Shown here piece by piece: positions 1-13,518 of a DNA stretch of 13,518 nt; position 1 is the stretch's first letter; every line of letters starts with the position of its first letter. Made by a program: the position numbers and the translations under genes. The notes below the pieces were generated by a model. It was not told where the DNA came from and did no database searches. It saw only the letters and a program-made list of their open reading frames with translations. The stretch is from IMG/VR virus record IMGVR_UViG_2541047745_000013; one strand, written 5' to 3'. Source of the stretch: a virus (Duplodnaviria > Heunggongvirae > Uroviricota > Caudoviricetes).

Positions 1-819
1 ATGCGATTAGCCAGTCGTTTTGGTTATGCGAACCAGGTACGTCGTGATCGTCCGCTGACACACGAAGAACTGATGCGCCATGTACCGAGTATTTTTGGGG
101 AAGACCGACATACCTCCCGCAGTGAACACTATGCGTACATTCCCACTATCACCGTCCTGGAAAATCTGCAGCAGGAAGGCTTTCAGCCATTCTTCGCCTG
201 CCAGACCCGCGTACGTGACCCGGGCCGCCGGGGATACACAAAACACATGCTGCGCCTGCGCCGTAACGGGGAGATAAACGGACAACATGTCCCTGAAATT
301 ATTCTGCTCAACTCCCATGACGGTACCTCCAGCTACCAGATGCTGCCGGGTTACTTCAGATTCGTCTGCCAGAACGGCTGCGTCTGCGGTCAGTCTCTGG
401 GGGAAGTCCATGTGCCCCACCGGGGAAATGTGGTGGACAGAGTCATTGAAGGGGCTCACGAGGTAGTGGGCGTTTTTGACCGGATTGAGGAAAAGCGTGA
501 TGCCATGCAGTCTCTGGTTCTGCCGCCACCGGCACGTCAGGCACTGGCACAGGCGGCGCTGACTTACCGTTATGGTGATGAACATCAACCCGTCACCACT
601 GCCGACATTCTGACACCACGACGCCGGGAGGATTACGGTAAGGACCTGTGGAGCGCATATCAGACCATCCAGGAGAATATGCTGAAAGGCGGGATTTCCG
701 GCCGTAGTGCAAAAGGAAAACGTATCCATACCCGCGCCATTCACAGTATCGACACCGACATCAAGCTCAATCGCGCATTGTGGGTGATGGCGGAAACGCT
801 GCTGGAGAGTATGCGCTGA
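1..819 (+). CDS. DUF932-domain protein (YfjQ/YafZ family)
   Basis: 272-codon ORF with ATG at window position 1 and TGA at 817-819. The translation (MRLASRFG ... NRALWVMAETLLESMR) matches my recollection of YfjQ-type proteins. Upstream context is not visible, so the start cannot be verified. Confidence 0.8.
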   Translation: MRLASRFGYANQVRRDRPLTHEELMRHVPSIFGEDRHTSRSEHYAYIPTITVLENLQQEGFQPFFACQTRVRDPGRRGYTKHMLRLRRNGEINGQHVPEIILLNSHDGTSSYQMLPGYFRFVCQNGCVCGQSLGEVHVPHRGNVVDRVIEGAHEVVGVFDRIEEKRDAMQSLVLPPPARQALAQAALTYRYGDEHQPVTTADILTPRRREDYGKDLWSAYQTIQENMLKGGISGRSAKGKRIHTRAIHSIDTDIKLNRALWVMAETLLESMR

Positions 820-910
820 TGTTGTTTCCCTGAAAGTGCAACCCTGACTCACGTCTGTATCAGTCCCCAGGCATTCTTCCATTCATTTGCTTTTTATAAG
901 GAATAGTCTC

Positions 911-1396
911 ATGACAACCTCTTCGCATAATTCCACCACACCTTCTGTTTCCGTAACAACTGCATCAGGGAATAACCAGTCTCAACTGGTTGCCACTCCT
1001 GTCCCTGATGAACAGCGCATCAGTTTCTGGCCGCAGCATTTTGGCCTCATTCCACAGTGGGTGACCCTGGAGCCCCGTGTCTTCGGCTGGATGGACCGTC
1101 TGTGCGAAGACTACTGCGGTGGTATCTGGAATCTGTACACCCTGAACAACGGCGGGGCATTTATGGCCCCTGAACCGGATGGCGATGATGACGAAACATG
1201 GGTACTGTTCAATGCCATGAACGGTAACCGCGCTGAAATGAGCCCGGAAGCCGCCGGCATTGCCGCCTGTCTGATGACGTACAGCCATCACGCCTGCCGT
1301 ACGGAGTGTTATGTCATGACGGTTCATTATTACCGTCTGCGGGATTACGCCCTGCAGCATCCGGAATGCAGCGCCATTATGCGCATCATTGACTGA
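911..1396 (+). CDS. Antirestriction-family protein (YfjX/YafX-like)
   Basis: The open frame begins at TTG 887, but ATG 911 has an AAGGA 9 nt upstream and gives the MTT... N-terminus expected for this family. TGA stop at 1394-1396. Conserved-looking core WPQHFGLIPQWV ... GGIWNLYTLNNGG. Confidence 0.8.
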   Translation: MTTSSHNSTTPSVSVTTASGNNQSQLVATPVPDEQRISFWPQHFGLIPQWVTLEPRVFGWMDRLCEDYCGGIWNLYTLNNGGAFMAPEPDGDDDETWVLFNAMNGNRAEMSPEAAGIAACLMTYSHHACRTECYVMTVHYYRLRDYALQHPECSAIMRIID

Positions 1397-1411
1397 AAGG
1401 GGGCCGGAACA

Positions 1412-1888
1412 ATGCAACAGATTTCCTTTCTGCCCGGAGAAATGACAACCAGAGAGCGCAGCCTCATTCAGCGGGCCCTGAAAGCCCTGGACCGCCATCT
1501 TCATGAACCCGGCGTGGCCTTCACCTCCACCCGTGCGGCACGGGAATGGCTGATTCTGAACATGGCGGGACTGGAGCGTGAAGAATTCCGGGTGCTGTAT
1601 CTGAATAACCAGAATCAGCTGATTGCCGGTGAAACCCTCTTCACCGGCACCATCAACCGCACGGAAGTCCATCCCCGGGAGGTGATTAAACGCGCCCTGT
1701 ACCACAATGCCGCTGCCGTGGTGCTGGCACACAATCACCCGTCCGGTGAAGTCACACCCAGCAAGGCAGACCGCCTTATCACGGAACGTCTGGTACAGGC
1801 ACTGGGCCTGGTGGATATCCGGGTACCGGACCATCTGATAGTCGGTGGCAGCCAGGTTTTCTCCTTTGCGGAACACGGCCTGCTTTAA
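1412..1888 (+). CDS. RadC-like JAB/MPN-domain protein (YeeS/YfjY/YkfG family)
   Basis: 158-aa ORF with AGGGGG ribosome-binding site upstream of ATG 1412. Contains the HNHPSG JAMM-type motif (…VVLAHNHPSGEVTPSKAD…). TAA stop at 1886-1888. Confidence 0.9.
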   Translation: MQQISFLPGEMTTRERSLIQRALKALDRHLHEPGVAFTSTRAAREWLILNMAGLEREEFRVLYLNNQNQLIAGETLFTGTINRTEVHPREVIKRALYHNAAAVVLAHNHPSGEVTPSKADRLITERLVQALGLVDIRVPDHLIVGGSQVFSFAEHGLL

Positions 1889-1956
1889 CCCGTCACCGTC
1901 ACAACCACATCACACCTGTTTTCACTTTTATCTTCTGTCTTCAGAGGTATCCCATC

Positions 1957-2178
1957 ATGAAAATCATCACCCGTGGTGAAGCCATGCGTATTCACCGTCA
2001 GCATCCGGCATCCCGTCTTTTCCCGTTCTGTACCGGCAAATACCGCTGGCACGGCAGCACTGAAGCGTATACCGGTCGTGAAGTGCAGGATATTCCCGGT
2101 GTGCTGGCCGTGTTTGCTGAACGTCGTAAGGACAGTTTTGGCCCGTATGTCCGGCTGATGAGCGTCACCCTGAACTGA
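1957..2178 (+). CDS. DUF987-domain protein (YeeT/YpjJ/YkfH family)
   Basis: 73-aa ORF MKIITRGEAMRIHRQHP…RLMSVTLN, at the expected position between the RadC-like gene and the antitoxin. Confidence 0.8.
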   Translation: MKIITRGEAMRIHRQHPASRLFPFCTGKYRWHGSTEAYTGREVQDIPGVLAVFAERRKDSFGPYVRLMSVTLN

Positions 2179-2291
2179 TGTTCCGTCACCCGGAAAACGA
2201 GTACGACTGGCTGAGCTCAGACGCCGCTGTGGATGAGGCCCTGCTCATAAACGAATACACCTTTACCGAAGGCGGTCTGCGCGCCGGCTGA
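2178..2291 (+). CDS. Candidate 37-aa small ORF coupled to the DUF987 gene (speculative)
   Basis: ATG at 2178-2180 overlaps the DUF987 TGA (2176-2178) in a TGATG arrangement. Reads MFRHPENEYDWLSSDAAVDEALLINEYTFTEGGLRAG, stop TGA 2289-2291. No ribosome-binding site other than coupling; may be a remnant. Confidence 0.2.
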   Translation: MFRHPENEYDWLSSDAAVDEALLINEYTFTEGGLRAG

Positions 2292-2340
2292 CCTGTCATC
2301 GTTAAACCATTCTTAACCGATTTTCTGTGAGGATTTTATC

Positions 2341-2709
2341 GTGTCAGACGCACTCTCCGGGACAATGCTTCCCGACGACAATCACGACCGCCCCTGGTGG
2401 GGGCTGCCCTGCACCGTGACGCCCTGTTTCGGGGCACGTCTGGTGCAGGAGGGTAACCGCCTGCATTACCTTGCCGACCGCGCCGGTATCAGAGGCCTGT
2501 TCAGCGATGCAGATGCGTACCACCTGGACCAGGCCTTTCCGCTGCTGATGAAACAACTGGAACTCATGCTCACCAGCGGTGAACTGAATCCCCGCCATCA
2601 GCATACCGTCACGCTGTATGCAAAAGGTCTGACCTGCAAAGCTGACACTCTCGGTAGCGGTGGTTACGTTTATCTGGCTGTTTATCCGACGCCCGAAACG
2701 AAAAAGTAA
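2341..2709 (+). CDS. cbeA: Type IV toxin-antitoxin antitoxin CbeA (YeeU family)
   Basis: GTG start at 2341 with GAGGA about 8 nt upstream. The 122-aa translation ([49 protein letters not shown]…) closely matches my recollection of E. coli YeeU/CbeA. Confidence 0.9.
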
Positions 2710-2798
2710 ACCACCGGAATAATCGTCTGTTCCGGCCCGGTGCATTACAGCACCACTCTTCCCACAATTTACTCTCTCATATCAGGAATATCTTCAGT

Positions 2799-3176
2799 AT
2801 GAAAACATTACCCGACACACACGTACGGGAGGCATCGCGCTGCCTGTCTCCGGTTGAAATCTGGCAGACACTGCTCACCCGGTTACTGGACCAGCACTAC
2901 GGCCTCACACTGAATGACACACCGTTCGCTGATGAACGTGTGATTGAGCAGCATATTGAAGCAGGGATTTCACTGTGTGACGCGGTGAACTTTCTCGTTG
3001 AAAAATACGCCCTGGTGCGTACCGACCAGCCGGGATTCAGCCCCTGTACCCGCTCTCAGTTAATCAACAGTATCGATATCCTCCGGGCACGCCGGGCAAC
3101 CGGCCTGATGACCCGCGATAACTACAGAACGGTAAATAACATTACCCGGGGTAAGCATCCGGAGGCGAAACAATGA
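2799..3176 (+). CDS. cbtA: Type IV toxin-antitoxin toxin CbtA (YeeV/YkfI/YpjF family)
   Basis: 125-aa ORF with the conserved core [52 protein letters not shown] as recalled for YeeV. Lies immediately downstream of cbeA. Confidence 0.9.
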
Positions 3177-3661
3177 AACTGGCCCTGACGCCGGAAGCCG
3201 ATAGCATTAACGTGCAGGCACTGAACATGGGGCGCATTGTCGTTGACGTCGATGGTGTTACTCTCGCTGAACTGATTAACGTGGTCTGTGATAATGGCCA
3301 CTCCCTTCGTATTGTTGATGAATCTGACCGGGCCTCAACAGACTGCATGCCACCATTTGCTGCCCTTACCGGTATACGCTGCAGTACCGCACATATCACG
3401 GAAACGGACAACGCCTGGCTGTACTCGCTGTCACACCAGACTAATGACGACGGCGAATCAGAATGGATTCATTTTACCGGCAGCGGCTATCTGTTACGTA
3501 CTGATACGTGGCCGTATCCGGTTCTGCGGCTTAAACGACTGGGCCTGTCCAGAACGTTCCGCCGTCTGGTTGTCACTCTCATCCGCCGTTATGGCGTCAG
3601 TCTCATTCATCTGGATGCCAGTGCCAGATGCCTGCCGGGTTTACCCACTTTCAACTGGTAA
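3173..3661 (+). CDS. YeeW-like protein (DUF-type family that follows cbtA in CP4-type islands)
   Basis: 162-aa ORF whose ATG (3173-3175) overlaps the cbtA stop (ATGA at 3173-3176). Assignment rests on position and gene order, not on a recognised motif. Confidence 0.65.
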
Positions 3662-3672
3662 CCAGGAACAAC

Positions 3673-3870
3673 ATGAAATCATTAACCACGGAAACCGCAC
3701 TGGATATTCTGATTGCGTGGCTGCAGGACAATATCGACTGCGAATCGGGGATTATCTTCGACAACGATGAGGATAAAACGGATTCGGCAGCACTGCTGCC
3801 CTGTATTGAACAGGCCAGGGAAGATATCCGTACCCTGCACCAGTTGCAGTTTCTGCAACAGAACTGGTGA
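3673..3870 (+). CDS. DUF957-domain small protein
   Basis: ATG 3673 preceded by AGGA at 3663-3666. 65-aa product MKSLTTETALDILIAWLQDNIDCESGIIFDNDEDKTD…; the longer frame from 3628 lies inside the previous gene and is less likely. TGA stop 3868-3870. Confidence 0.7.
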   Translation: MKSLTTETALDILIAWLQDNIDCESGIIFDNDEDKTDSAALLPCIEQAREDIRTLHQLQFLQQNW

Positions 3871-3899
3871 GTCTTACTCACCAGACTTCATTCCACTGA

Positions 3900-3931
3900 C
3901 GCCAGCCTGAACAGGGCTGGCGTTTTCATTT
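3900..3931 (+). terminator. Rho-independent terminator after the cbeA-cbtA-yeeW-DUF957 block
   Basis: 7-bp GC-rich stem CGCCAGC (3900-3906) / GCTGGCG (3916-3922) with a 9-nt loop, followed by TTTTCATTT. Confidence 0.7.
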
Positions 3932-3984
3932 ATCTGCAAAAAGGAATATCGATTATATCTGAACTCACAGCCTCCCGTCCGGAA

Positions 3985-4809
3985 GTGGTCAACGGACATA
4001 CGGACGTTATCGGCTCAACCAGTATCCGCCACATTCTGGCTGTACGACAGAGTACATTGCTGCAAATCGACACACTTATCCGGCAACTGGCTGAAATCTC
4101 AGCAATGACAGTAAGTATTGGCGGTAAAACTGCACTGGACTGGGCCATGAAACAGGATTTTCGCTGCGGTTTCTGGCTGATGGAGAAACCTGAAATCGCA
4201 ATGAAAGCCATCACCCGGAATCTCGATCGCGAACTCTGGCGTGACCTGATGCAACGTTCCGGGATGCTTTCCTTAATGGATGCACAGGCCCGTGAGACAT
4301 GGTACCGGTCACTGGAGTACGATAATGTCCCGGAAATCAGTGAAGCAAACATTCTGAACACATTTAAACAACTGCACCAGAATAAGGATGAGGTGTTTGA
4401 GCGAGGGGTGATCAACGTCTTCAGGGGACTGAACTGGAATTACAAAACCAATTTACCCTGCAAATTTGGCAGTAAAATTATCGTCAACAATCTGGTGAGA
4501 TGGGACCGGTGGGGATTTCATATTGTCACCGGACAGCAGGCTGACCGGGTTGCTGACCTGGAAAGGATGCTGCACCTGTTCAGCGGCTGGCCCATCCCCG
4601 ACAACCGGGAAAATATCATCATCCGTCTGGATGACCACATTCAGTCCGCTCAGGGTCAGGAGTGCTATGAATATGAAGATGAGATGTTCAGCATCAGATA
4701 CTTTAAGAAGGGCTCCGCGCACATCACGTTCAGAAAACCGGAACTGATTGATCGGCTAAATGACATCATTGCGAAGTATTATCCAGAAATAATCCCATAC
4801 AATATCTAA
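3985..4809 (+). CDS. DUF4942-domain protein (conserved terminal gene of CP4-type islands); start codon uncertain
   Basis: 274-codon ORF ending TAA 4807-4809. The first canonical start in frame is GTG 3985 with no convincing ribosome-binding site; the frame is open back to 3871. Family call from recall of the gene order CbtA / YeeW-like / DUF957 / DUF4942. Confidence 0.65.
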   Translation: MVNGHTDVIGSTSIRHILAVRQSTLLQIDTLIRQLAEISAMTVSIGGKTALDWAMKQDFRCGFWLMEKPEIAMKAITRNLDRELWRDLMQRSGMLSLMDAQARETWYRSLEYDNVPEISEANILNTFKQLHQNKDEVFERGVINVFRGLNWNYKTNLPCKFGSKIIVNNLVRWDRWGFHIVTGQQADRVADLERMLHLFSGWPIPDNRENIIIRLDDHIQSAQGQECYEYEDEMFSIRYFKKGSAHITFRKPELIDRLNDIIAKYYPEIIPYNI

Positions 4810-4853: not shown

Positions 4854-4899
4854 CTGCATGGTCGAGTAGACAGGGTATCTCAGACCATGCATGTATTTT
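4854..4899. terminator. Possible bidirectional terminator between convergent DUF4942 gene and integrase
   Basis: Inverted repeat TGCATGGTC (4854-4862) / GACCATGCA (4882-4890) followed by TTTTT (4895-4899). The 19-nt loop is long for an intrinsic terminator. Confidence 0.3.
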
Positions 4900-4901
4900 T
4901 A

Positions 4902-6221
4902 TCATCTGTTCCCAAATTTTATATGAATAACATTATCCGGAGCATTCTGCTGCACAGTAATGACGTTATTCATAATAAAATTCCCCCATTCTATAAATAA
5001 ATTTTTTAATTTTTCAGCTTGTTGTCCGACTTGATATGTTCGTATTAAACGGTCTTTGGGTACATGATTTAACAGTAACTCTATTAGGCGCTCTGGAGCA
5101 TCAAGGTATTCAGCGCATCCAGTCGCAACACTTCTACGCAGATCATGAGGAGAAAATGGAGTAAGTTCGGCTAGATACTTAGAGCGAACCCTTTCTAACG
5201 CGCGAGTCAGAGCGTCATTTGTGATGGGAAAGTCAGGTTTGCTAGTAGAACCAAAAACATATGCACCTTCAGTGAATTCACGTTGTGTTTTTATTAAAGA
5301 AAGCATATACGGATGTAAAGTAACAATATGGCTTTTCCCATTTTTAGTGGCTGGTATGGTCCAACGCTCTCCATTAATTTGATCCCAGCGCATTTGTGCC
5401 GCTTCAGAGCGGCGCACTCCTGTGAAAATAATCAAACGGAGTGCATTTGCGACAGAATGAGATAATACCACACTAGAGGAAATTCCATAGCCACCAGATG
5501 CAATGGAGCCTCCTCCAACAGTAGCATCATCCAAAGCCTTCCATAGCATCCGGAGTTCATTCTCAGGAAGCCATCGCTCGCGAGGTTTATTCATCGATGC
5601 ACCAAACATTGCTGGTTTGAGCAGTCGTGCTGGGTTATGCTCAAGCATACCCTGTAAGTTGGCATGATCAAGAGTCATATTTAGAATAATTAATCCTTTA
5701 CGAACTGCTTCAGAACTGGTTTTTCTTACATTACTGAGATGTTCAAAAATAACGCTTTTGGTAAGTTCGTCAATGCGAAGGTTTCCTAATGCTTTTTCAA
5801 GGTGGCGGTGATAAGTCCCTTCATAATCTGCAAGGGTTCTGGTGCTAATTGGTTTGCTTGTCTTTCTGAATTCTATCCAATCTTTCCATAATTCAGAGTA
5901 AATAATCATTTGTTCATTTTTTTGTTTTTCATTTTTTCTAATATGACGAGGATCTATACCTTTTCTTACTAATTCAATTGCATCCGCATGAGCTTTACGA
6001 GCTTGAGCTAATCCCATGGCAGGGTAACTACCTAGTGTTAATTTAGCTGGCTTTTGAGCTATTCGATAACGATAAATCCAGCTTTTATTGTCGCTACCAT
6101 AACGAACGCGTATAAAGAGTCCTCCCCCAGCTTTAGATTTTACAGCAAATAAGATTTCTTTTTCTTCTTTAGTAACGGTCAATGAAGCCAATTGTCTGTC
6201 TTGTGTAATAGTAAAAGTCAT
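4902..6221 (-). CDS. Tyrosine recombinase / phage integrase (P4-type; plausibly IntF-like of CP4-6-type islands)
   Basis: Open frame 4902-6257 on the - strand. Preferred start is the ATG at 6221-6219 (MTFTITQ…), which places the GGGL arm-binding motif at a typical distance; ATG 6257 is the alternative. C-terminal catalytic signature is present (…RRSEAAQ…, HDLRRSVAT, LNHV, RTYQ). Sampled 60-nt stretches are about 37-40% GC versus 52-60% in flanking genes. Confidence 0.9.
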   Translation of the reverse strand: MTFTITQDRQLASLTVTKEEKEILFAVKSKAGGGLFIRVRYGSDNKSWIYRYRIAQKPAKLTLGSYPAMGLAQARKAHADAIELVRKGIDPRHIRKNEKQKNEQMIIYSELWKDWIEFRKTSKPISTRTLADYEGTYHRHLEKALGNLRIDELTKSVIFEHLSNVRKTSSEAVRKGLIILNMTLDHANLQGMLEHNPARLLKPAMFGASMNKPRERWLPENELRMLWKALDDATVGGGSIASGGYGISSSVVLSHSVANALRLIIFTGVRRSEAAQMRWDQINGERWTIPATKNGKSHIVTLHPYMLSLIKTQREFTEGAYVFGSTSKPDFPITNDALTRALERVRSKYLAELTPFSPHDLRRSVATGCAEYLDAPERLIELLLNHVPKDRLIRTYQVGQQAEKLKNLFIEWGNFIMNNVITVQQNAPDNVIHIKFGNR

Positions 6222-6386
6222 ATCTTCAGCCTTTTGGGTACACAGCGGGGTACACATTTAACATGATATCATCAGAAACAAGGCGAAACATCTTGATACT
6301 GCATTTGTGTGTATTTTATTGATTTTTATATATTTTTTATTGTATGTTGAAACGGCTGTGAACATCTTGAATCACTGGTCTCGCTA

Positions 6387-6432
6387 ATTCGTAATGCGAA
6401 GGTCGTAGGTTCGACTCCTATTATCGGCACCA
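6387..6432 (+). other. 3' 46 nt of tRNA-Thr(CGU) (thrW-type): pseudo-tRNA / att core copy
   Basis: ATTCGTAATGCGAAGGTCGTAGGTTCGACTCCTATTATCGGCACCA matches the anticodon loop, T-arm, 3' acceptor strand and CCA of E. coli thrW as I recall it. The upstream sequence has no complementary 5' acceptor strand (GCCGATA) or D-arm, so this is not an intact tRNA. Confidence 0.85.
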
Positions 6433-6448
6433 TTCAAACATCTCCCCA

Positions 6449-6597
6449 AGTCTACTAAAGTCTTTCAAAACCCCTTATAATCCACGTATTAAAGCCCCGT
6501 TCGTCTTTTGACGTCTACTAAAGCCCCTCAAAATCTACGGTCAGATGGGGGTACTTATGGGGGTATTTGCTGTTCGGTTTAGTGGAGGTACCCCCAA
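6449..6597 (+). promoter_or_regulatory. Direct and inverted repeats between att core and integrase start (candidate arm-type / regulatory sites)
   Basis: TCTACTAAAG at 6451-6460 and again at 6515-6524, each followed by a (T/C)-rich tract then TCAAAA. TAAAGCCCC at 6490-6498 and 6518-6526. GGGGGTA twice (6547-6566) and the inverted complement GTACCCCC at 6587-6594, beside the GGAGG ribosome-binding site. Confidence 0.4.
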
Positions 6598-7812
6598 GTG
6601 AAACTCAATGCCCGTCAAATAGACACAGCCAAGCCAAAAGAGAAGGCTTACAAGCTGGCCGATGGTGGCGGTTTGTATCTCTTGGTAAAACCTAATGGAG
6701 GTAAATACTGGCGACTTAAATATCGTGTAGCTGGTAAAGAGAAGCTATTGGCACTAGGTGTGTATCCTGAGGTTACTCTAGCCGATGCTCGGGCAAAACG
6801 TGAAGATGCGAAAAGAGGTATCGCTGGTGGTATCGATCCGATGGAAGCGAAACGAGAGGAAAAGATTGCCCGGGAAACGCAGTTAAACAACACCTTCAAA
6901 GATATTGCCCTTGAGTGGCACAGCAGCAAATTAAAAAAATGGTCTGCTGGTTATGCTTCAGACATCCTCGAAGCCTTCAACAAAGATGTGTTCCCTTACA
7001 TTGGCAAAAAACCAATCGCCGAAATCAAACCACTTGAACTTCTGAATGTGCTGCGGCGCATCGAGGGGCGCGGTGCGACAGAAAAAGCCAAAAAAGTGAG
7101 GCAGCGGTGCGGGGAAGTTTTCCGCTATGCAATAGTCACTGGTCGCGCAGAGTATAACCCTGCACCAGACCTTACTAGCGCGATGCAAGGCCATGAATCT
7201 AATCATTACCCTTTCCTTACGACCAAAGAATTACCTGATTTTTTCAAGGCATTATCCAGTTACTCAGGAAGCGCATTGGTTGTTATGGCGGCTCGTCTAC
7301 TGATTATCACCGGCTTGCGAACTGGCGAACTACGTGGCGCATTATGGGATGAAATTGATTTCAACAAGGCTATATGGGAGATACCCGCTTCACGTATGAA
7401 AATGCGGCGGCCTCATATTGTGCCATTGTCTGAGCAGGCTCTTTCGCTTATTGGGAAGATTAGAGAAATAACAGGCAATTACCCTCTTATGTTTCCCGGG
7501 CGCAATGATCCAAGGAAAACAATGAGTGAGGCCAGCATAAACCAAGTGTTTAAGCGCATTGGCTACGCTGGACGTGTAACTGGTCATGGGTTCCGACACA
7601 CTATGAGCACGATTTTGCATGAGCAGGGCTATAACACCGCGTGGATAGAAACGCAGCTCGCTCACGTTGATAAGAACTCAATTCGTGGCACATACAACCA
7701 TGCGCAATATCTGGATGGACGGCGGGAGATGCTTCAATGGTATGCCGACTATATGGATTCTCTCGAGCATGGCGGAAATGTGGTGCATATGGTGTTTGAA
7801 AAACACGCATGA
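6598..7812 (+). CDS. Tyrosine recombinase / phage integrase (P4 / CP4-57 IntA-like)
   Basis: 404-aa ORF with GTG start at 6598 and GGAGG at 6582-6586. N-terminal arm-binding-like region (KPKEKAYKLADGGGLYLLVKPNGGKYWRLKYR…LGVYPEVTLADAR). C-terminal signature GLRTGELRG, HGFRHT, and the terminal tyrosine region AHVDKNSIRGTYNH. TGA stop 7810-7812. Confidence 0.9.
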   Translation: MKLNARQIDTAKPKEKAYKLADGGGLYLLVKPNGGKYWRLKYRVAGKEKLLALGVYPEVTLADARAKREDAKRGIAGGIDPMEAKREEKIARETQLNNTFKDIALEWHSSKLKKWSAGYASDILEAFNKDVFPYIGKKPIAEIKPLELLNVLRRIEGRGATEKAKKVRQRCGEVFRYAIVTGRAEYNPAPDLTSAMQGHESNHYPFLTTKELPDFFKALSSYSGSALVVMAARLLIITGLRTGELRGALWDEIDFNKAIWEIPASRMKMRRPHIVPLSEQALSLIGKIREITGNYPLMFPGRNDPRKTMSEASINQVFKRIGYAGRVTGHGFRHTMSTILHEQGYNTAWIETQLAHVDKNSIRGTYNHAQYLDGRREMLQWYADYMDSLEHGGNVVHMVFEKHA

Positions 7813-8062
7813 AACAACTGGACAAGTATACAGAGGTTTACTAAAGTATAGGGGAGTAGATTGATAAAAACTCACAGAGGATTGCTATTTAACAGTTAGC
7901 CCTGGAGAAGGGCAATCGCTCTTTTATAAACGAAGGTGTATTGAGCCTTCTACGCTGCTGAAAAGCGGAATGTTCTTTAACAGGCTTTGGCGCTGACAAA
8001 GCGCAATTGTTCTTTAAAACTACTGGATGTCACGCCTAATAGCGTGATCCTGCCGAAATGCA

Positions 8063-8239: not shown

Positions 8240-8443
8240 ATGGCTAATTACAATTCATTAATTCGTCTCTCTGAAGTTCAAAGGCGAACTGGTTATAGCA
8301 AAGCATGGATTTATCGTCTTATTAGTCAGGGGAGGTTCCCTAAACAGGTAAAAATTGGAAGTCGGGCAATTGCTTTTGTTGAGTCTGAAATAGATGAATG
8401 GATTGAGAAGTGTATATTAGAATCTAGAGACGAGGTGGCCTGA
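8240..8443 (+). CDS. alpA: AlpA-family phage regulatory protein / excisionase-like helix-turn-helix protein
   Basis: 67-aa ORF with AGGA 9 nt upstream of the ATG. Motif IRLSEVQRRTGYSKAWIYRLISQGRFPKQVKIGSRAIAFVESEIDEWI matches the AlpA/Vis-type pattern. Confidence 0.85.
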   Translation: MANYNSLIRLSEVQRRTGYSKAWIYRLISQGRFPKQVKIGSRAIAFVESEIDEWIEKCILESRDEVA

Positions 8444-8874
8444 TGGAAAAGAAAAACCGCCCATTACAGGCGGCTAATTCAGATATTCGCGTATCTGATG
8501 TTACGCCCCTGACAAAATCCCTTCAAGCACCAAAGCGCACGCCGAAAAAGCATCGTGCCCGAGTCTATATGCTGCGTACTGGTATAGAGGGATGGACAGA
8601 AAATGACATTCTTCGCTACTGCCGTCTGTCTTCTGGTCGTAACTATGCAACAGAGTTAGAACGCCAGCTCGGAATCACTCTGGAGCGTATCGACGAAAAG
8701 AATCCTGATGGTATCGGAACACACCTTCGCTACCGTTTCTCCTGCCGTGGTGATGTTCTGAAAGTGATCACTCATATTAACCATCTTGCGAACATAAATG
8801 ATCACAACGGACTTTCTCAGCAGGAAATTGCCGACATTCTGAAACTCTACCCGGACGCGTTTAACGCCGCCTAA
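8443..8874 (+). CDS. Hypothetical protein (143 aa), translationally coupled to alpA
   Basis: ATG at 8443 overlaps the alpA TGA (TGATG). The translation looks like ordinary protein; no family recognised. Confidence 0.6.
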   Translation: MEKKNRPLQAANSDIRVSDVTPLTKSLQAPKRTPKKHRARVYMLRTGIEGWTENDILRYCRLSSGRNYATELERQLGITLERIDEKNPDGIGTHLRYRFSCRGDVLKVITHINHLANINDHNGLSQQEIADILKLYPDAFNAA

Positions 8875-8886
8875 CGGAGACTGAAA

Positions 8887-9720
8887 ATGAACATCGAAAA
8901 AAGCAGATTAATTTCTGAGGCTGCCCCTCATCTGAACGCCTCTCTGGGCACAATTAACGGTAATGAATTTGCCGCAATTGTCCCGGTTATTCCTGGTCAT
9001 ATCGGTGGGCGTGAAACCAATATTGTTAGCGCAAAAGCGTTACACAAAGCGTTGGGCGTGGGAAAAGACTTCTCTACATGGATCACTGATCGCATCTCTG
9101 AATATGACTTCACCATTGGGCACGATTACTCAGTCCATAAAACTATTTCCCCAAATTTGGGGAAAATCCCGAATGGCGCGGCTTACAGCAAGATTAAGCA
9201 GTCTGGAAGACCCGGCAAAGACTATCTGTTAAGTGTCGGAATGGCGAAAGAACTGGCAATGATCGAACGCAATGATCAGGGGCGCGCTATCCGCCGTTAT
9301 TTCATCCAGTGCGAGGAAGAATTACAGCGTAGCGTGCCTGAAATCGCCGCCCGCTATCGTCGCCAGCTAAAAGCCCGTATCAGTGCCGCAAACAACTTTA
9401 AGCCAATGTGCGATGCGCTGAATATGGCCCGTGCCGAGATGGGGAAAACGACGCAGCAACACCACTACACAAACGAGAGCAATATGATTTCTCGTATCGT
9501 TCTTGGTGGGCTAACTGCTAAGCAGTGGGCGCGGATAAATGGCTATTCTGGCGAACCTCGCGACCATATGAACGCAGAACAGCTTGAGCACCTCTCATAT
9601 CTCGAAAGCACCAATATCACGTTAATTGATATGGGCATGGAATATGAGCAGCGCAAAGGAGAACTCACCCGCCTGTCGCAACGCTGGCTCGCTAAGCGTC
9701 TGGAGGCGGTCCATGTTTAA
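8887..9720 (+). CDS. Phage antirepressor-like protein (AntA-domain-like N-terminal region)
   Basis: 277-aa ORF with GGAG upstream. The region …ALHKALGVGKDFSTWITDRISEYDFTIGHDY…GRPGKDYLLSVGMAKELAMIERNDQGRAIRRYFIQCEEEL resembles AntA-type antirepressor domains as I recall them; not verified by search. Confidence 0.55.
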   Translation: MNIEKSRLISEAAPHLNASLGTINGNEFAAIVPVIPGHIGGRETNIVSAKALHKALGVGKDFSTWITDRISEYDFTIGHDYSVHKTISPNLGKIPNGAAYSKIKQSGRPGKDYLLSVGMAKELAMIERNDQGRAIRRYFIQCEEELQRSVPEIAARYRRQLKARISAANNFKPMCDALNMARAEMGKTTQQHHYTNESNMISRIVLGGLTAKQWARINGYSGEPRDHMNAEQLEHLSYLESTNITLIDMGMEYEQRKGELTRLSQRWLAKRLEAVHV

Positions 9721-9895
9721 GCCGACAGGAACACCACAACCTCAAAAACGCTACAAAGATGCCCACGGAGCACTCGTTACTGTCGAAAGCGTGTCTCACA
9801 ACCGAGTGACGTTTTATCGCGACGGGTATCAATCGCCATGCGTACAACCGCTGGCACGTTTCATGAAGGAGTTCGCGGAGGTTAACAAATGCTAA
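9713..9895 (+). CDS. Small hypothetical protein (60 aa; possibly DUF4222-like)
   Basis: ATG 9713 with GGAGG at 9702-9706, overlapping the upstream TAA (9718-9720). Product [60 protein letters not shown]. Confidence 0.55.
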   Translation: MFKPTGTPQPQKRYKDAHGALVTVESVSHNRVTFYRDGYQSPCVQPLARFMKEFAEVNKC

Positions 9896-10956
9896 CCGCC
9901 CAGAAGAAGACATTTTCACTGGCTGGTATGTCGCCAAAATCCAGCAATATGACAGCAAAGTCAGGCATTAATACAGCAGATACAAGCAAAGTTTATCATT
10001 TGCTGGTGGTAGGAGCGGATGCCTTAACTATGTCAGAAATTACGGTCGATGGTGTTAGCGTTGAGAAGGTCAGCGGCTGCGCCAGAGAATTTCTGGTCGT
10101 AGATGGCTTTCTCTGCTCGCGTAGTGACTCCACAAAAACCTTCGTCCACGCGCGTGACGTTAACGAAATGAGCGCGATGTACTGTGCTTCTGGTTCTTCC
10201 AATAGTGAGTTTTCGGAGTCCATAAAAAAGAGCTTGCCGTTATGCGGCAACACGGTTTATGGTTATAAGGCACCTCATAAAACGGGTGCCGGGATTGGCG
10301 TCCTGGTAAATCGAATGGCGACATATGACGCGCCGAGCGTCTTTTTTTATGTCGTAGGTCTGACTCACCCATTTTTTGGGCGTTGGTGTATAATCCAGCG
10401 CCTTTGTCAATCAATGGTGGCTCAGGCAGGGGCTTCTTCGGAAGCGCCGGTATCCATTCGAGCCGGTTACGCCAACCCTGTCTGGGCTACCACCAGCGAA
10501 ATTGGCGTTTCCGGTGGTAGCGTTACATGCTATCGAATGGAGGCTGCCACATGCTGGCTACTACCCCTACCCAAAAACCGCAATTTATCTGGATTATCGC
10601 CGCAGTTCGCCGCGATTGCCCGACAATTACCGCCAAAATTCATCATATTGCTGCCGAGTCTGAACGCGATGCTCGCCGTTCTCTGGTGCGCGATCACGTC
10701 TGCTTTTTTGCTGGTCGTATCCGCATGGAGGTGGCACATGATTAAAACCTACGATGTGCATATGGATCCCCTCGAACGCACAAGCCAGATCATCACACTG
10801 ACAGAAGTGATTAACGACATTCTGGTGAGCAACTCTCCCTCACGAGACGAAAGACTGAAGGCGTTACTCGCGATATTGGATCTCGCCGTTCGTGACGTTC
10901 ATTTCCTGCTGGAAGGTGGCGAAATGCCAGTAAAAACGGGGGAAACCAATGAATAA
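9889..10956 (+). CDS. ORF of unresolved extent: strong coupled start at 9889, frame open for 355 codons through a terminator-like hairpin, a promoter-like element and the Icd-like gene
   Basis: ATG 9889 with GGAGG at 9877-9881 overlaps the upstream stop. The other two + frames have many stops across 9889-10330. The first roughly 145 codons look coding; beyond about 10330 the translation is A/S/G/L/P-rich and resembles off-frame reading. No in-frame stop until 10954-10956. Confidence 0.3.
10327..10348 (+). terminator. Candidate intrinsic terminator (short GC stem plus T7 run)
   Basis: GACGC (10327-10331), loop GCCGA, GCGTC (10337-10341), then TTTTTTT (10342-10348). The stem is only 5 bp. Confidence 0.35.
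10360..10394 (+). promoter_or_regulatory. Candidate sigma70 promoter (perfect -10 TATAAT with upstream TG; weak -35) for the icd-like operon
   Basis: TATAAT at 10389-10394 preceded by TG at 10387-10388 and a T-rich tract at 10372-10377. No good TTGACA at 17-bp spacing. Confidence 0.35.
10400..10530 (+). ncRNA. Candidate structured leader / immunity-type antisense RNA region (P1 c4 / P4 CI-like by position) upstream of the icd-like gene
   Basis: Hairpin GCTTC-TTCG-GAAGC at 10432-10445 (UUCG tetraloop closed by C-G). A 9-bp stem GCTACCACC (10486-10494) / GGTGGTAGC (10513-10521) with an 18-nt loop. A related motif TGGTGGCTCAGG at 10415-10426. Translation of this stretch looks non-protein-like. 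Confidence 0.3.
10551..10745 (+). CDS. Host cell-division inhibitor Icd-like small protein
   Basis: ATG 10551 with GGAGG at 10540-10544. 64-aa product [64 protein letters not shown] resembles Icd-like proteins of P4-type prophages as I recall them. TAA stop 10743-10745. Confidence 0.55.
   Translation: MLATTPTQKPQFIWIIAAVRRDCPTITAKIHHIAAESERDARRSLVRDHVCFFAGRIRMEVAHD
10738..10956 (+). CDS. Hypothetical small protein (72 aa)
   Basis: ATG 10738 with GGAGG at 10727-10731 overlaps the icd-like stop. Acidic, helical-looking product. Same frame as the long 9889 ORF. Confidence 0.5.
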   Translation: MIKTYDVHMDPLERTSQIITLTEVINDILVSNSPSRDERLKALLAILDLAVRDVHFLLEGGEMPVKTGETNE

Positions 10957-11143
10957 CTCAATTAATACCCCTCGCCTTACGTCCGCACTTCAATTAATCG
11001 AGCAAGCAGCGGCTGTCCTGGTTGCTGTCAGTCTTTCGGCTGAAGAAATGGACGCTACTGATGTCGTGGATGCGATTAAAGCGTGCTCATCTTTGGTTAA
11101 CGATGCCCGTGCAGAGCTGGTAATTCTTGGGGGTGAAAAATGA
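10949..11143 (+). CDS. Hypothetical small protein (64 aa)
   Basis: ATG 10949 with GGGGGA upstream overlaps the previous stop by 8 nt. Product [64 protein letters not shown]. Confidence 0.55.
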   Translation: MNNSINTPRLTSALQLIEQAAAVLVAVSLSAEEMDATDVVDAIKACSSLVNDARAELVILGGEK

Positions 11144-11403
11144 ATATCAACTTAATTTATCGTCATCCGTGTGAGCTGGAAATTGAATCATTGCTGAGCC
11201 GTGAAGAGCCATATCCAGACACATTCACTCTTGCAGATCGCACGACTGAACGGCTTACCAGAGCGCGCACAGGTCTGGTTCATGTGATGAATGAGATTCT
11301 TCCATCGGTGGGAGGGGAACAGGCGACAGTAATCACTAGCTGGCTACAAAAAGTTACCTCTCTGATAGATATCAGTTTAATCGATGCGGAGAGTGCGAAA
11401 TGA
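11140..11403 (+). CDS. Hypothetical protein (87 aa)
   Basis: ATGA overlap with the previous stop at 11140-11143; G-rich ribosome-binding site upstream. Confidence 0.6.
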   Translation: MNINLIYRHPCELEIESLLSREEPYPDTFTLADRTTERLTRARTGLVHVMNEILPSVGGEQATVITSWLQKVTSLIDISLIDAESAK

Positions 11404-11621
11404 CCAACATCCAGCTCATTGAAGCGCAATGTCGCATCGAACAGGTTCAGACTGTTTTAGGGTTCTGGCTTGAAGGGGCCAGCCCCAGCAACAGAGACAA
11501 GTTAATGATTGGCGCGGTTATGTCACTGCTCAATGGCGTACCAGAAGCTATTCAGGAAGCAGACGAATTGTTGGGCAAATATGAGTTACAGAATCATTCA
11601 GGCGAGGCGAAACATGAATAA
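11400..11621 (+). CDS. Hypothetical protein (73 aa)
   Basis: ATGA overlap at 11400-11403; GGAG 8 nt upstream. Confidence 0.6.
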   Translation: MTNIQLIEAQCRIEQVQTVLGFWLEGASPSNRDKLMIGAVMSLLNGVPEAIQEADELLGKYELQNHSGEAKHE

Positions 11622-12216
11622 TTTCTTAACTTTCCATGCAGAAGCAACGCCTGACGGCGTAAACATCATGCACCGCAGCAACGATGGCATGACAGAACGC
11701 GTTGAGACCGTCTCATATATTGATGCCGTAAATCGTCTGGATGCCGGGGATTATGACGATAAACCAGATGAAGGCATGTCAATACATCTCGCTATAGCCG
11801 ATGGCGGCAACCAGGGATATTTCGATTACACATCACAGCATAACGTCATTATGTGGAGATGGCTGATCGCAACAGTATTCATGCTGGAAATGAGAGAGGA
11901 AAACGGCACTGTCAGCATCATTGATGATACTGGCAATCCTTCCGAAGTGGCTGTTTATTCCAACGGCATCGTCGCCATGCCGCTGTATCCAGTAGCAGAG
12001 CGCCTCGCTATGGCAAACAACATTGAGGGCGCGATGATAGAACGTTTTGGCATCGAGTCTGGCACAGAACGCGCCATCATTTTCTACAGAGCCATGATGG
12101 ATGTGGAACAAGGAGCACTGACTCCATTTGGTCGTGAAACGCTTGCTGAACTTCACAACAGCTTTATAGCTGAACTGAATGAAAACGGCATGCCAGCGGA
12201 ACCAGTGACGCACTGA
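11614..12216 (+). CDS. Hypothetical protein (200 aa)
   Basis: ATG 11614 with GAGG at 11604-11607, overlapping the previous gene by 8 nt. The track ORF beginning 11509 is the same frame read through the upstream gene. No family recognised. Confidence 0.6.
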   Translation: MNNFLTFHAEATPDGVNIMHRSNDGMTERVETVSYIDAVNRLDAGDYDDKPDEGMSIHLAIADGGNQGYFDYTSQHNVIMWRWLIATVFMLEMREENGTVSIIDDTGNPSEVAVYSNGIVAMPLYPVAERLAMANNIEGAMIERFGIESGTERAIIFYRAMMDVEQGALTPFGRETLAELHNSFIAELNENGMPAEPVTH

Positions 12217-12226
12217 GGATGGAGCC

Positions 12227-12568
12227 ATGATTACTAAAAATTTCCGACTGAATGCGCTGGCAAATAAGTATGCGTCGGCACTGTATAACCACATTACCTC
12301 CACCAGCGGCGGGGACTATTTCATGGTTGATGCGGACGGCGAGGCCGTACGTGTGGAAATCGTCAATGGAGTAAAAGGCGTTCGCAGCCTGATCGATAGC
12401 TACACACTGGCAGCCATGAAAGTGTTCTACCCGCAGTGGGAAACCGTGGGGATCGAGCTTCTTGATCGTTGCGTCACTAAGGACGGATTGACTGACGTCG
12501 GGCGTGAGATATGGCAAAGCATGGTTAATGACATGGGCGCAACTGTAGCGGGAGGTTCTCATGCGTGA
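12227..12568 (+). CDS. Hypothetical protein (113 aa)
   Basis: ATG 12227 with GAGGA at 12216-12220. No family recognised. Confidence 0.6.
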   Translation: MITKNFRLNALANKYASALYNHITSTSGGDYFMVDADGEAVRVEIVNGVKGVRSLIDSYTLAAMKVFYPQWETVGIELLDRCVTKDGLTDVGREIWQSMVNDMGATVAGGSHA

Positions 12569-12932
12569 AAATGCAGAAATGGCGCTTAGCTCCGCAATCG
12601 GAGAGCAGGTGGCAAAGATTGCTGGTGCTGTGTGGATTCATAACCTTCATTCTACTGGTGAAGAGAAAATGGCAATTCAGACGCCAGAGGGACGCACCAT
12701 TACTACATCTCTGAAGCCGTCAGATGTTTGTGATCTGATTTGCGCATTCATGTACCCAGCAATGAGGACTGCCCACGGCGATAAGTGGAAACTTGCGACA
12801 ACCGCTGAATTTGATATGTGGCTAAACAATGATGGCATGCTGACTGATTACGGAATAACCAAGTGGCAGATGCTGGTTAGCCATATCGCAAACGCTATAG
12901 ACCACGTGGGGTACGGTGATGCGAAACATTGA
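12561..12932 (+). CDS. Hypothetical protein (123 aa)
   Basis: ATG 12561 with GGAGG at 12551-12555, overlapping the previous stop by 8 nt. Confidence 0.6.
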   Translation: MRENAEMALSSAIGEQVAKIAGAVWIHNLHSTGEEKMAIQTPEGRTITTSLKPSDVCDLICAFMYPAMRTAHGDKWKLATTAEFDMWLNNDGMLTDYGITKWQMLVSHIANAIDHVGYGDAKH

Positions 12933-13518
12933 TCTTATCCGTCAGGTTATCAGTGCGTCTGAAAACAACTGGCCTCATGTGCTGGGCTGCCTGAACATAA
13001 ATGTCCCTGACTCTCCGCGCCGTCATGCTCCCTGCCCTGCATGTGGGGGCAAAGATCGATTCCGGTTCGATGACAACGGGCGCGGTAGCTTCATCTGTAA
13101 TCAGTGCGGCGCTGGTGATGGGCTGGATTTAATTAAACGCGTAAATAACTGCGACACAACAGAGGCGGCGCTTCTTGCCGCTGATGTTCTGGGTATTGAT
13201 TACCGGACAACGGAAACACCAGAAGCCACCAGCCAGAAACGGGAACAACTGGAAACCGAGCGCCAGCGACGCGAACAGGAGCGCCTGAAAAGGGCAGAGA
13301 AGGACGAACAACAAAGACGGGATACGTTTTCCCGTCAGTTTGATGACATGCGCAGAAAGGCTGTAAACGGCAAATCTGATTATCTGGTTGCGAAAGGGGT
13401 AGGTGATTTTACATTCCCCGTGTTGCCCGATGGATCTCTGTTGCTGGCGCTGGTGGATAAATCCGGCGCAGTCACAGCAGCACAGACTATTACCTCACAT
13501 GGTGAAAAAAGACTCCTG
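12919..13518 (+). CDS. DNA primase, P4 alpha / PICI Pri-type (N-terminal zinc-ribbon; 3' truncated by window end)
   Basis: ATG 12919 overlaps the upstream stop (12930-12932). My own translation gives …HAPCPACGGKDRFRFDDNGRGSFICNQCGAGDGLDLI…, the CxxC…CxxC zinc-binding motif of P4-type primases, followed by a charged ERQRREQERLKRAEKDEQQRR linker. This ORF is absent from the supplied track because it has no stop in the window. Confidence 0.85.
   Translation, partial: MRNIDLIRQVISASENNWPHVLGCLNINVPDSPRRHAPCPACGGKDRFRFDDNGRGSFICNQCGAGDGLDLIKRVNNCDTTEAALLAADVLGIDYRTTETPEATSQKREQLETERQRREQERLKRAEKDEQQRRDTFSRQFDDMRRKAVNGKSDYLVAKGVGDFTFPVLPDGSLLLALVDKSGAVTAAQTITSHGEKRLL

What the first reader, a model, noticed from the sequence alone, without database searches (positions are those of the whole stretch)
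6222..6597. Junction of two integrative elements: a 46-nt tRNA-Thr(CGU) 3' fragment flanked by two divergent integrase genes
Only the 3' half of a thrW-type tRNA is present (6387-6432). A - strand integrase ends its N-terminus about 165 bp to the left, and a + strand integrase begins 165 bp to the right. This is what serial (tandem) integration at one tRNA site would produce: the fragment would be the displaced attR copy of the left CP4-type island and at the same time the attL-side core for the right satellite-like element. The arrangement recalls intF next to the pseudo-tRNA ptwF at the end of CP4-6 in E. coli K-12. The equal 165-bp spacing depends on choosing the MTF start for the left integrase.
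Basis: partly seen in the sequence, partly recalled or inferred. Interest (0 to 1): 0.6.

Follow-up and report, generated by a model that had tools for sequence, protein, structure and literature searches.

The report
Two mobile elements sharing one tRNA stub
A 46-base leftover of the threonine tRNA gene thrW marks where a pathogenicity-island-type element and a phage-parasitising island (an EcCIMP1-type PICI) sit back to back in E. coli; this is a real but ordinary and already documented kind of tandem insertion.

Summary
Confirmed and ordinary. Window 6387-6432 is an exact copy of the last 46 nt of E. coli thrW, and no whole tRNA is present. To its left, a P4-family integrase (4902-6221, minus strand) ends a PAI III536-type island. 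To its right, a second P4-family integrase (6598-7812) starts an element 97.9% identical to EcCIMP1, a PICI shown experimentally to be mobilised by the P22-like phage Kapi1.

Complete E. coli genomes show every occupancy state of the site: empty, island alone (100 genomes), PICI-type integrase next to intact thrW (859), and both together (5 with this PICI). In strain PRO_A-1028 the full array reads proA, intact thrW, 45-kb island, integrase, 46-nt stub, 19-kb PICI, 17-nt core, yagP.

Each element has its own arm repeats at both of its ends: GGGTACACA for the island, TGGGGGTA for the PICI. The stub is therefore the island's attR and the PICI's attL.

- The left integrase is not an IntF orthologue (25% identity).
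- The equal 165-bp spacing is coincidence.

Tandem arrays at thrW are already annotated (O157 Sakai Sp1/Sp2), so novelty is low. One side observation may matter more: the PICI carries a fragment of a P22-type small-terminase gene that begins at the pac site.

The parts
1..4809 (+). Distal conserved module of the left island: DUF932, antirestriction, RadC/JAB, DUF987, CbeA antitoxin, CbtA toxin, DUF5983, DUF957, DUF4942.
   Evidence: RefSeq annotation of near-identical loci in EC36 and 536. Pfam families on identical contigs.
4902..6221 (-). Integrase of the left island (PAI III536 type), 439 aa, a P4-family tyrosine recombinase.
   Evidence: Pfam Arm-DNA-bind_3, Phage_int_M and Phage_integrase. 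PHROG 1 integrase. The R-K-H-R-H-Y positions are visible in the alignment. Region 4810-6386 is 100% identical in strain 536 and present in 203 of 5426 genomes.
6222..6386 (.). P arm of the left island's attachment site, which also holds the integrase's upstream region. It contains the tandem GGGTACACA repeat at 6236-6244 and 6248-6256.
   Evidence: These are the only two copies in the window. The same motif (GGGTACACACAGGGGACACAA) recurs 57 nt downstream of intact thrW at the other end of the island in PRO_A-1028, and nowhere else in that 48-kb locus. That far-end arm is single-copy in 279 genomes and co-occurs with this integrase.
6387..6432 (+). 46-nt 3' fragment of tRNA-Thr(CGU) thrW: attR core of the left island and attL core of the PICI.
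   Evidence: Exact match to thrW positions 31-76. No tRNA called. Homology to PICI-only genomes breaks exactly at 6385/6387.
6387..6394 (+). Anticodon-loop end of the fragment (ATTCGTAA): inferred strand-exchange region for the left island's integrase.
   Evidence: Inference only. The identity block starts at the anticodon loop, as in anticodon-type (A) tDNA sites (PMC4383910). P22/SfV-type prophages give the same 46-nt block.
6416..6434 (+). Core used by the PICI integrase (TCCTATTATCGGCACCA plus TT). The inferred overlap is GCACCAT at 6427-6433.
   Evidence: The right-end copy of the PICI is TCCTATTATCG-CACCA, one G fewer. This holds in A34, PRO_A-1028, EC36, MP1, EC-10 and Sakai Sp2, with three different sequences to its right. 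It also holds in about 48 listed genomes, none of which has the GG form.
6433..6597 (+). P' arm of the PICI. It holds GTCTACTAAAG twice (6450, 6513) and TGGGGGTA three times (6546, 6558, and inverted at 6589).
   Evidence: Two further TGGGGGTA copies lie 75-100 nt upstream of the PICI's right-end core in A34, PRO_A-1028 and EC36. In PRO_A-1028 and A34 the motif occurs nowhere else in the fetched locus; EC36 was not scanned as a whole.
6598..7812 (+). PICI integrase (EcCIMP1 IntS_1 type), 404 aa.
   Evidence: Pfam. 403 of 404 residues identical to the MP1 EcCIMP1 integrase. The exact protein is indexed in 4668 collection blocks and sits next to proA in six of the eight places shown. It is required for excision and transfer (PMC11773190).
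8240..8443 (+). AlpA, the PICI master regulator and excision factor.
   Evidence: PHROG excisionase/regulator. Pfam Phage_AlpA. Function shown for EcCIMP1.
8443..13518 (+). Remainder of the PICI's left half: PM1773-family protein, AntA/B antirepressor, DUF4222, 'Ash' region with isrK and C4 RNAs, small ORFs, and the start of the TOPRIM/DUF927 primase.
   Evidence: 97.9% identity to MP1 EcCIMP1 over 6387-13518.

Best explanation
The region is the internal junction of a tandem array of two independent integrative elements at the thrW tRNA gene.

The left element is a large island of the PAI III536 type. Its integrase gene lies at the end far from the intact tRNA. The 46-nt stub is the piece of thrW that was displaced when that island recombined at the anticodon-loop end of the gene.

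The right element is an EcCIMP1-type phage-inducible chromosomal island (PICI). Its integrase recognises only the last 17 or so bases of the tRNA and exchanges strands at the very 3' end (GCACCAT). For this integrase the stub is as good a target as the whole gene.

The stub therefore serves two integrases at two different sub-sites, its 5' edge for the island and its 3' edge for the PICI. Each element keeps both of its own arms, so each should be able to excise without the other.

What is shown: the identity of the stub, the identity of both elements, their boundaries, and their independent occurrence. What is inferred: the positions of strand exchange and the order of arrival. The PICI arriving second, into the displaced stub, is somewhat more likely than the reverse.
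For: Identity of the stub:
- Exact 46-nt thrW 3' fragment and no intact tRNA.

The whole array in a syntenic genome:
- PRO_A-1028 reads proA, thrW, 45-kb island, integrase (minus strand), 46 nt, 19-kb PICI, 17-nt core, yagP-paoD.
- A contig 99.98% identical to the whole window exists.

All occupancy states are seen:
- Empty site in no107.
- Island alone in 100 genomes.
- PICI-type integrase next to intact thrW in 859 genomes.
- Both elements in 5 genomes with this PICI. A further 32 genomes have the island next to the related truncated vat-island integrase.

Element-specific arm repeats at both ends of each element, and only there.

Both integrases are intact P4-family recombinases.

The right element is EcCIMP1:
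- 97.9% nucleotide identity, integrase 403/404.
- Excision is integrase-dependent and AlpA-dependent, and transfer by phage Kapi1 was shown experimentally (PMC11773190).

The PICI crosses over 3' of the missing G:
- The one-G-shorter core always travels with the PICI's right end, whatever follows it. This was seen in five inspected E. coli genomes (A34, PRO_A-1028, EC36, MP1, EC-10) and in Sakai Sp2.
- About 48 listed genomes fit the same allele and none has the GG form. The attL side is always GG.

Precedents:
- O157 Sakai has thrW, Sp1, a 46-nt stub, the P4-like Sp2 and the same shortened core.
- Sp10 integrates next to Rac using Rac's attR as attB (PMC2669165).
- Islander defines and counts such tandem arrays, 125 among 3919 islands.
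Against: - The window itself holds only the middle copy of the core, so the full array is shown in syntenic genomes and not in the source genome.
- Strand-exchange positions are inferred from sequence patterns and were not measured.
- Three of five sampled island-only genomes carry the one-G-shorter allele in their stub. Precise PICI excision under my model should not produce that. This would fit better with exchange at the T-stem/acceptor junction.
- The order of integration cannot be decided. Both possible single-element ancestors exist, 536-like and MP1-like.
- The island's mobility has not been tested here, and the papers on PAI III536 excision could not be read.
Confidence: 0.9

Rival explanations
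1. Order variant A. The island was there first and the PICI later integrated into the island's displaced 46-nt stub, using attR as a secondary attB.
For: The island next to the stub without this PICI is common (100 genomes with the native flank; 32 with the vat-island arm). EC36 looks like a 536-type array with the PICI inserted between the stub and the vat-island arm. The PICI is demonstrably mobile. Use of an attR as attB has been shown for Sp10/Rac. The PICI needs only the last 17 or so nt, which the stub contains.
Against: The final structure is identical under the reverse order. MP1-like ancestors (thrW, PICI, vat island) also exist.
Confidence: 0.55
2. Order variant B. The PICI was at the intact thrW first. 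The island then integrated at the anticodon-loop site of that thrW, pushing the 3' 46 nt together with the PICI downstream.
For: A PICI-type integrase next to intact thrW is by far the commonest state (859 genomes). The island's inferred crossover site exists only in an intact thrW.
Against: No transfer mechanism is evident for the 45-75 kb island. Island plus stub without a PICI is widespread.
Confidence: 0.35
3. One composite element with two integrases that moves as a unit, with the tRNA stub as an internal relic.
For: The two elements are adjacent and divergent integrase genes flank the stub.
Against: Each half occurs alone at thrW in hundreds of genomes. Each has its own arm repeats at both ends. 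The pairing is rare, 5 of 5426 genomes.
Confidence: 0.03
4. A thrW gene truncated in place by an insertion or deletion. The stub would be the remains of the only copy, with no duplication.
For: Only a 3' fragment is visible in the window.
Against: In syntenic genomes an intact thrW lies at the other end of the island. The stub boundary equals that of P22/SfV-type attR sites. thrW matches 5031 of 5426 genomes.
Confidence: 0.02

Closest known systems
E. coli O157:H7 Sakai prophages Sp1 and Sp2 in tandem at thrW
   Same: Same chromosomal site. The order is thrW, element 1, identical 46-nt stub, P4-family integrase on the plus strand, element 2, one-G-shorter 17-nt core, yagP flank.
   Different: Element 1 is a lambdoid prophage remnant whose integrase lies at the thrW end. 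Element 2 is a classical P4-like satellite (psu, sid) whose integrase is 64.6% identical to the window's.
E. coli K-12 cryptic prophage CP4-6 with intF next to the thrW pseudo-fragment (ptwF)
   Same: Integrase on the minus strand at the far end of the island, directly before a 3' thrW fragment, with yagP beyond it. The island contains the same kind of YkfI/YafW-type module.
   Different: IntF is only 25% identical to the window's left integrase. The repeat is 49 nt and the gap is 109 nt. [quoted passage not shown]
EcCIMP1, the PICI of E. coli MP1 (Pick et al., ISME J 2025, PMC11773190)
   Same: The right element is this PICI: 97.9% nucleotide identity, integrase 403/404, same thrW site, same gene order. 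In MP1 it is also in tandem, with the vat-island remnant on its right.
   Different: In MP1 the PICI abuts the intact thrW. Here it abuts a displaced stub behind a large island. The paper does not discuss att sites.
PAI III536 region of uropathogenic E. coli 536
   Same: The left 6.9 kb of the window is 98.9% identical to the right end of this island. The integrase region is 100% identical and is followed by the same 46-nt stub.
   Different: In 536 the stub is followed by a truncated related integrase and the marR-vat island, not by an intact PICI. The thrW end of 536 carries a different integrase on the minus strand.
Sp10 integrating in tandem with Rac by using Rac attR as attB (Asadulghani et al. 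2009, PMC2669165)
   Same: An experimental demonstration that a displaced attR copy can serve as the target for a second element.
   Different: The site is different and both elements there are lambdoid prophages.

Membership tests
Tandem array of tDNA-integrated islands (Islander definition, PMC4383910) | Each member has its own integrase gene. | tested here: met
   Two intact P4-family integrases at 4902-6221 (minus strand) and 6598-7812 (plus strand).
Tandem array of tDNA-integrated islands (Islander definition, PMC4383910) | Each member has its own tDNA fragment, oriented like the intact tDNA at one end of the array. | tested here: met
   In PRO_A-1028 there is an intact thrW, a 46-nt stub and a 17-nt core, all on the plus strand. 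The window itself contains only the middle copy.
Tandem array of tDNA-integrated islands (Islander definition, PMC4383910) | The members are separable: each is found alone at the same site, and an empty site exists. | tested here: met
P4-family (Arm-DNA-bind_3 / DUF4102) tyrosine integrases | Domain order Arm-DNA-bind_3, central domain, catalytic Phage_integrase domain. | tested here: met
   Both proteins. The central-domain hit of the left one, 26.3 bits, is just under the 27-bit cut-off.
P4-family (Arm-DNA-bind_3 / DUF4102) tyrosine integrases | Catalytic R, K, H-x-x-R, H, Y residues. | tested here: met
   Read off the pairwise alignment. Left: GVRRSE, TKNGKSH, HDLRRS, NHV...RTY. Right: GLRTGE, MKMRRPH, HGFRHT, AHV...GTY. 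Assignment is by inspection, not by a structure.
EcCIMP1-type PICI | Sequence identity and gene order: int, alpA, antirepressor, Ash region, primase, at thrW. | tested here: met
   97.9% over 7.1 kb, integrase 403/404, same order.
EcCIMP1-type PICI | Helper-phage-dependent excision, circularisation and transfer. | not testable with these tools
   Shown for the MP1 copy only (PMC11773190).
CP4-6 / IntF island | Integrase orthologous to IntF. | tested here: not met
   25% identity over 387 residues.
PAI III536-type thrW island | The same integrase and distal module next to a thrW stub. | tested here: met
   100% identity of 4810-6386 to strain 536, and 98.9% over 1-6933.
Anticodon-loop (A) versus T/acceptor-junction (J) attachment sub-sites | Position of strand exchange within the tRNA gene. 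| tested here: inconclusive
   The island's identity block starts at the anticodon loop, which fits type A. The PICI's block starts at the T-stem 3' strand, which looks like J. However, the shortened G allele always stays with the PICI, which places exchange further 3', in GCACCAT. Island-only stubs with the shortened allele argue the other way.

The most novel reading that the evidence does not exclude
The PICI carries a fragment of a P22-type small-terminase gene (window 10037-10152) that begins at the pac site. It is oriented so that packaging would run leftwards, across the thrW stub and into the neighbouring island. If that site works while the PICI is still integrated, a helper phage with a P22-type terminase could fill heads with the adjacent 45-75 kb pathogenicity-island DNA. 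The tandem junction would then be a launch pad for 'piggyback' lateral transduction of a uropathogenic island. A comparable process has been reported for staphylococcal SaPIs; that comparison rests on my own recollection and was not checked here.
Probability: 0.05. Interest if true: 0.65.

Novelty: already known. Interest (0 to 1): 0.18.

Why it matters
The finding mainly helps annotation. It gives exact boundaries for two elements that gene callers leave unmarked. It shows that a tRNA stub keeps a hot spot open for further insertions. It also identifies the right-hand element as a PICI with experimental support.

It adds a small mechanistic point: two related integrases use opposite edges of the same 46 bases, so the elements can come and go independently.

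The tandem arrangement also places a mobile, phage-packaged element directly beside an island of the PAI III536 type (S fimbriae, salmochelin, Ag43 and Vat in strain 536). This would matter only if the pac-like fragment proves functional.

Tried and rejected
- Intact tRNA overlapping the stub: none found by ARAGORN or by Rfam at E<=1.
- IntF orthology of the left integrase: rejected, 25% identity.
- Functional meaning of the 165/165 spacing: rejected. The arms are unrelated (z = -1.1) and relatives have 109 and 162 nt.
- Promoter scan of the junction: no sigma-70-like site, so nothing can be said about integrase regulation.
- Papers on PAI III536 and the VAT island (Dobrindt 2001, Parreira and Gyles 2003): not held. 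Two searches for thrW/PAI III536 literature gave little.
- Looking for the source genome: no complete E. coli genome is identical. The best is EC36 at 98.2% over 95%. A 45.8-kb draft contig matches at 99.98%, but its far ends could not be fetched.
- EC36 as a model for the whole array: unsuitable on the left, where the island abuts cadB/lysU and not thrW.
- LR-48 as a model for the island's thrW-proximal arm: unsuitable, because other DNA lies next to thrW there.
- Similarity of the window to helper phage Kapi1: none at nucleotide level.
- T/acceptor-junction crossover for the PICI: considered and judged less likely than a 3'-end crossover, but not excluded.

Full report
**Observation**

Window 6387-6432 is an exact copy of positions 31-76 of E. 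coli K-12 thrW, the tRNA-Thr(CGU) gene, which I read from NC_000913.3. The 30 bases before it do not resemble the 5' half of the gene. ARAGORN finds no tRNA anywhere in the window. Rfam finds none even at E<=1.

The flanking ORFs are 4902..6257 on the minus strand and 6598..7812 on the plus strand. RefSeq annotation of near-identical genomes starts the left gene at 6221 (MTF..., 439 aa). That start puts the Arm-DNA-binding domain at the N-terminus, as in the right protein. It also leaves a tandem GGGTACACA repeat outside the gene.

With that start, both gaps are 165 nt. The two arms are unrelated in sequence (z = -1.1 against shuffles). Relatives have 109 nt (K-12 intF) and 162 nt (Sakai Sp2). 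The symmetry is therefore accidental.

**The two elements**

Both proteins have the P4-family architecture of Arm-DNA-bind_3, a central domain and a Phage_integrase domain. They are 28% identical to each other, and the catalytic R, K, H-x-x-R, H and Y positions are present in both.

*The left element.* The left integrase is only 25% identical to K-12 IntF. Its gene and upstream region are 100% identical to those of uropathogenic strain 536 and occur once per genome in 203 of 5426 complete E. coli genomes. In 536 it lies at the right end of the thrW island called PAI III536. It follows the same Ag43, DUF932, antirestriction, RadC, CbeA/CbtA and DUF4942 module that fills window 1-4809.

*The right element.* The right element is 97.9% identical over 7.1 kb to EcCIMP1 of E. 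coli MP1, and its integrase matches at 403 of 404 residues. EcCIMP1 is a phage-inducible chromosomal island. Its excision needs this integrase and AlpA, and it is transferred by the P22-like phage Kapi1 (PMC11773190). The exact integrase protein is indexed in 4668 blocks of the assembly collection and sits right after proA in six of the eight places shown.

**The array and its occupancy states**

In complete genome PRO_A-1028 the whole structure can be read in order:
- proB and proA
- intact thrW
- an island of about 45 kb
- the integrase on the minus strand
- the 46-nt stub
- a PICI of about 19 kb
- a short core, TCCTATTATCG-CACCA
- the flank TTAAAATCAAAGAGTTACC..., then yagP and paoD

That flank is the native one. 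It directly follows intact thrW in the empty-site strain no107.

Other states of the same site are also present:
- The island alone, followed by the native flank, occurs in 100 genomes. In LR-48 the intact thrW sits 44 kb upstream.
- A PICI-type integrase directly after intact thrW occurs in 859 genomes, counting variants down to 83% identity.
- The island, stub and this PICI together occur in 5 complete genomes. The island, stub and a related truncated integrase of the marR-vat island occur in 32.
- A draft contig matches the whole window at 99.98%.
- When the whole window is searched, PICI-only genomes align from exactly 6385/6387 onward.

Other left neighbours of the same PICI include a gtr-carrying prophage (ET565, with the same 46-nt stub) and a prophage with a DUF6538 integrase. 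EC36 carries three elements in a row: island, PICI and vat island.

**Arm sites**

GGGTACACA occurs twice in the window, both copies at 6236-6256 between the left integrase and the stub. In PRO_A-1028 the only other exact copy in 48 kb is 57 nt after the intact thrW, as GGGTACACACAGGGGACACAA. That far-end arm is single-copy in 279 genomes. At least eleven of the genomes listed for it also appear among those listed for the integrase, at distances of 29-111 kb.

TGGGGGTA occurs three times in the window, all at 6546-6596 just before the PICI integrase. It occurs twice more 75-100 nt before the PICI's right-end core in A34, PRO_A-1028 and EC36. In PRO_A-1028 and A34 these are the only copies in the whole fetched locus. 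EC36 was read only around its core and not scanned as a whole.

Each element therefore has its own presumed integrase arm sites at both ends, which is what independent attachment sites require.

**Where the strands are exchanged (inference)**

The island's identity block with thrW starts at the anticodon loop (A|TTCGTAA). P22/SfV-type prophages give the same 46-nt block. This fits the anticodon-type sub-site of Islander.

The PICI's block is only the last 17 nt, and its right-end copy lacks one G. That shortened core is found at the PICI's right end in five inspected E. coli genomes (A34, PRO_A-1028, EC36, MP1, EC-10) and at the right end of Sakai Sp2. Three unrelated sequences lie to its right: the native flank, the vat-island arm and a lambdoid arm. 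About 48 listed genomes match a GG version of the junction only with a one-base gap, and none matches it perfectly. The left-end copy is always GG.

The simplest reading is that the missing G belongs to the PICI's attP and that exchange occurs 3' of it, in GCACCAT (6427-6433). The stub thus serves the island at its 5' edge and the PICI at its 3' edge.

One observation does not fit. Three of five island-only genomes have the shortened allele in their stub, and two have GG. Precise PICI excision should restore GG. A scar left by loss of a former PICI through the 10-11-nt left block is possible but untested.

**Order of arrival**

Both orders give the same structure, and both single-element ancestors exist: 536-like and MP1-like. 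I lean towards the PICI arriving second, into the displaced stub. The PICI is known to be mobile, and a displaced attR has been shown to serve as attB for another phage pair, Sp10 and Rac (PMC2669165).

**Comparison with what is known**

- At this very site, O157 Sakai is annotated with Sp1 and the P4-like Sp2 in tandem. They are separated by the identical 46-nt stub, and the array ends with the same shortened core.
- K-12 CP4-6 shows the same integrase-then-stub topology with an unrelated integrase.
- MP1 has EcCIMP1 in tandem with the vat remnant.

The finding is therefore correct, well delimited and not new in kind.

**Side observations**

The PICI contains 107-116 nt (window 10037-10152, sense on the minus strand) that are 86-89% identical to P22 gene 3, nt 268-374. 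The match starts at the annotated pac site. The 22-bp pac equivalent matches P22 at 16 of 22 positions. It is conserved among PICI copies, including MP1's.

Kapi1 has a different small terminase and no nucleotide similarity to the window. The EcCIMP1 paper states that the packaging mechanism is unknown and that transfer by Kapi1 is inefficient. A pac mimic aimed at helpers with a P22-type terminase is a testable lead.

The pac-like fragment points towards the junction. The speculative 'piggyback' reading given as the novel case rests on that orientation.

Noticed in passing
window 10037-10152 (sense on the minus strand): A fragment 86-89% identical to phage P22 small-terminase gene 3, nt 268-374, beginning exactly at the annotated pac site. 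The pac 22-mer matches at 16/22. The fragment is conserved in all PICI copies, including EcCIMP1 of MP1, and is absent from helper Kapi1. It may be a pac mimic for helpers with a P22-type terminase. The published EcCIMP1 study calls the packaging mechanism unknown.
   Followed up: partly
window 9889-10956: The 355-aa ORF annotated as 'ash family protein' contains, on the same strand, Rfam hits to isrK (10270-10347) and C4 antisense RNA (10410-10497), and on the opposite strand the terminase fragment. It is split into 'ash (partial)' plus 'Icd-like' in other genomes. It is probably not one real protein. The region looks like a P1/P4-type antisense-RNA immunity locus.
   Followed up: partly
L008, L012, L014 versus L015, L017 (island-only genomes, stub next to yagP flank): Three of five island-only genomes carry the one-G-shorter allele (..TATCG-CACCA) that otherwise marks the PICI's right end; two carry GG. 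The same integrase allele occurs with both. This may be a scar of a lost PICI. It remains unexplained.
   Followed up: partly
L001 (EC36) 1-20500: In EC36 the island's left part abuts lysU-cadA-cadB and IS66 remnants (the pheU neighbourhood), not proA-thrW. This suggests a large rearrangement between CP4-like islands. EC36 also has three elements in a row: island, PICI, vat-island remnant.
   Followed up: no
L016 (strain C4) about 2265-2345: The stub next to the same integrase has a compensatory T-stem variant (GGAGG/CCTCT in place of GTAGG/CCTAT) and a divergent flank (TTTAAATCAAGTAGTTACCTCACAT). It looks as if the island and its attR were imported from a lineage with a different thrW allele.
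   Followed up: no
L021 (2011EL-1370-2) 8398-9675 and junction: A different integrase (DUF6538 plus Phage_integrase, minus strand) with phage genes sits left of the same PICI. Homology to the window starts only at 6414, so that element leaves a stub of about 19 nt.
   Followed up: no
L009 (LR-48) 19100-24051: Between intact thrW and the rest of the island lie about 4.8 kb with an ABC-three-component system, DUF2326 and HigA. This replaces the island arm seen in PRO_A-1028.
   Followed up: no
L042 (EC-10) 2574-2600: At this PICI right end the base after ..CACCA is G, not T, and a lambdoid-type arm and a truncated integrase follow. This is a third kind of right-hand neighbour.
   Followed up: no
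loci downstream of the window (e.g. L006 24052-28710, L040 13981-19149): The PICI carries homologues of the P22 gene cluster 14-7-20-16 (DUF2824, P22_gp7, injection translocase, gp16-type ejection protein) after its primase. This is unusual cargo for a satellite.
   Followed up: no
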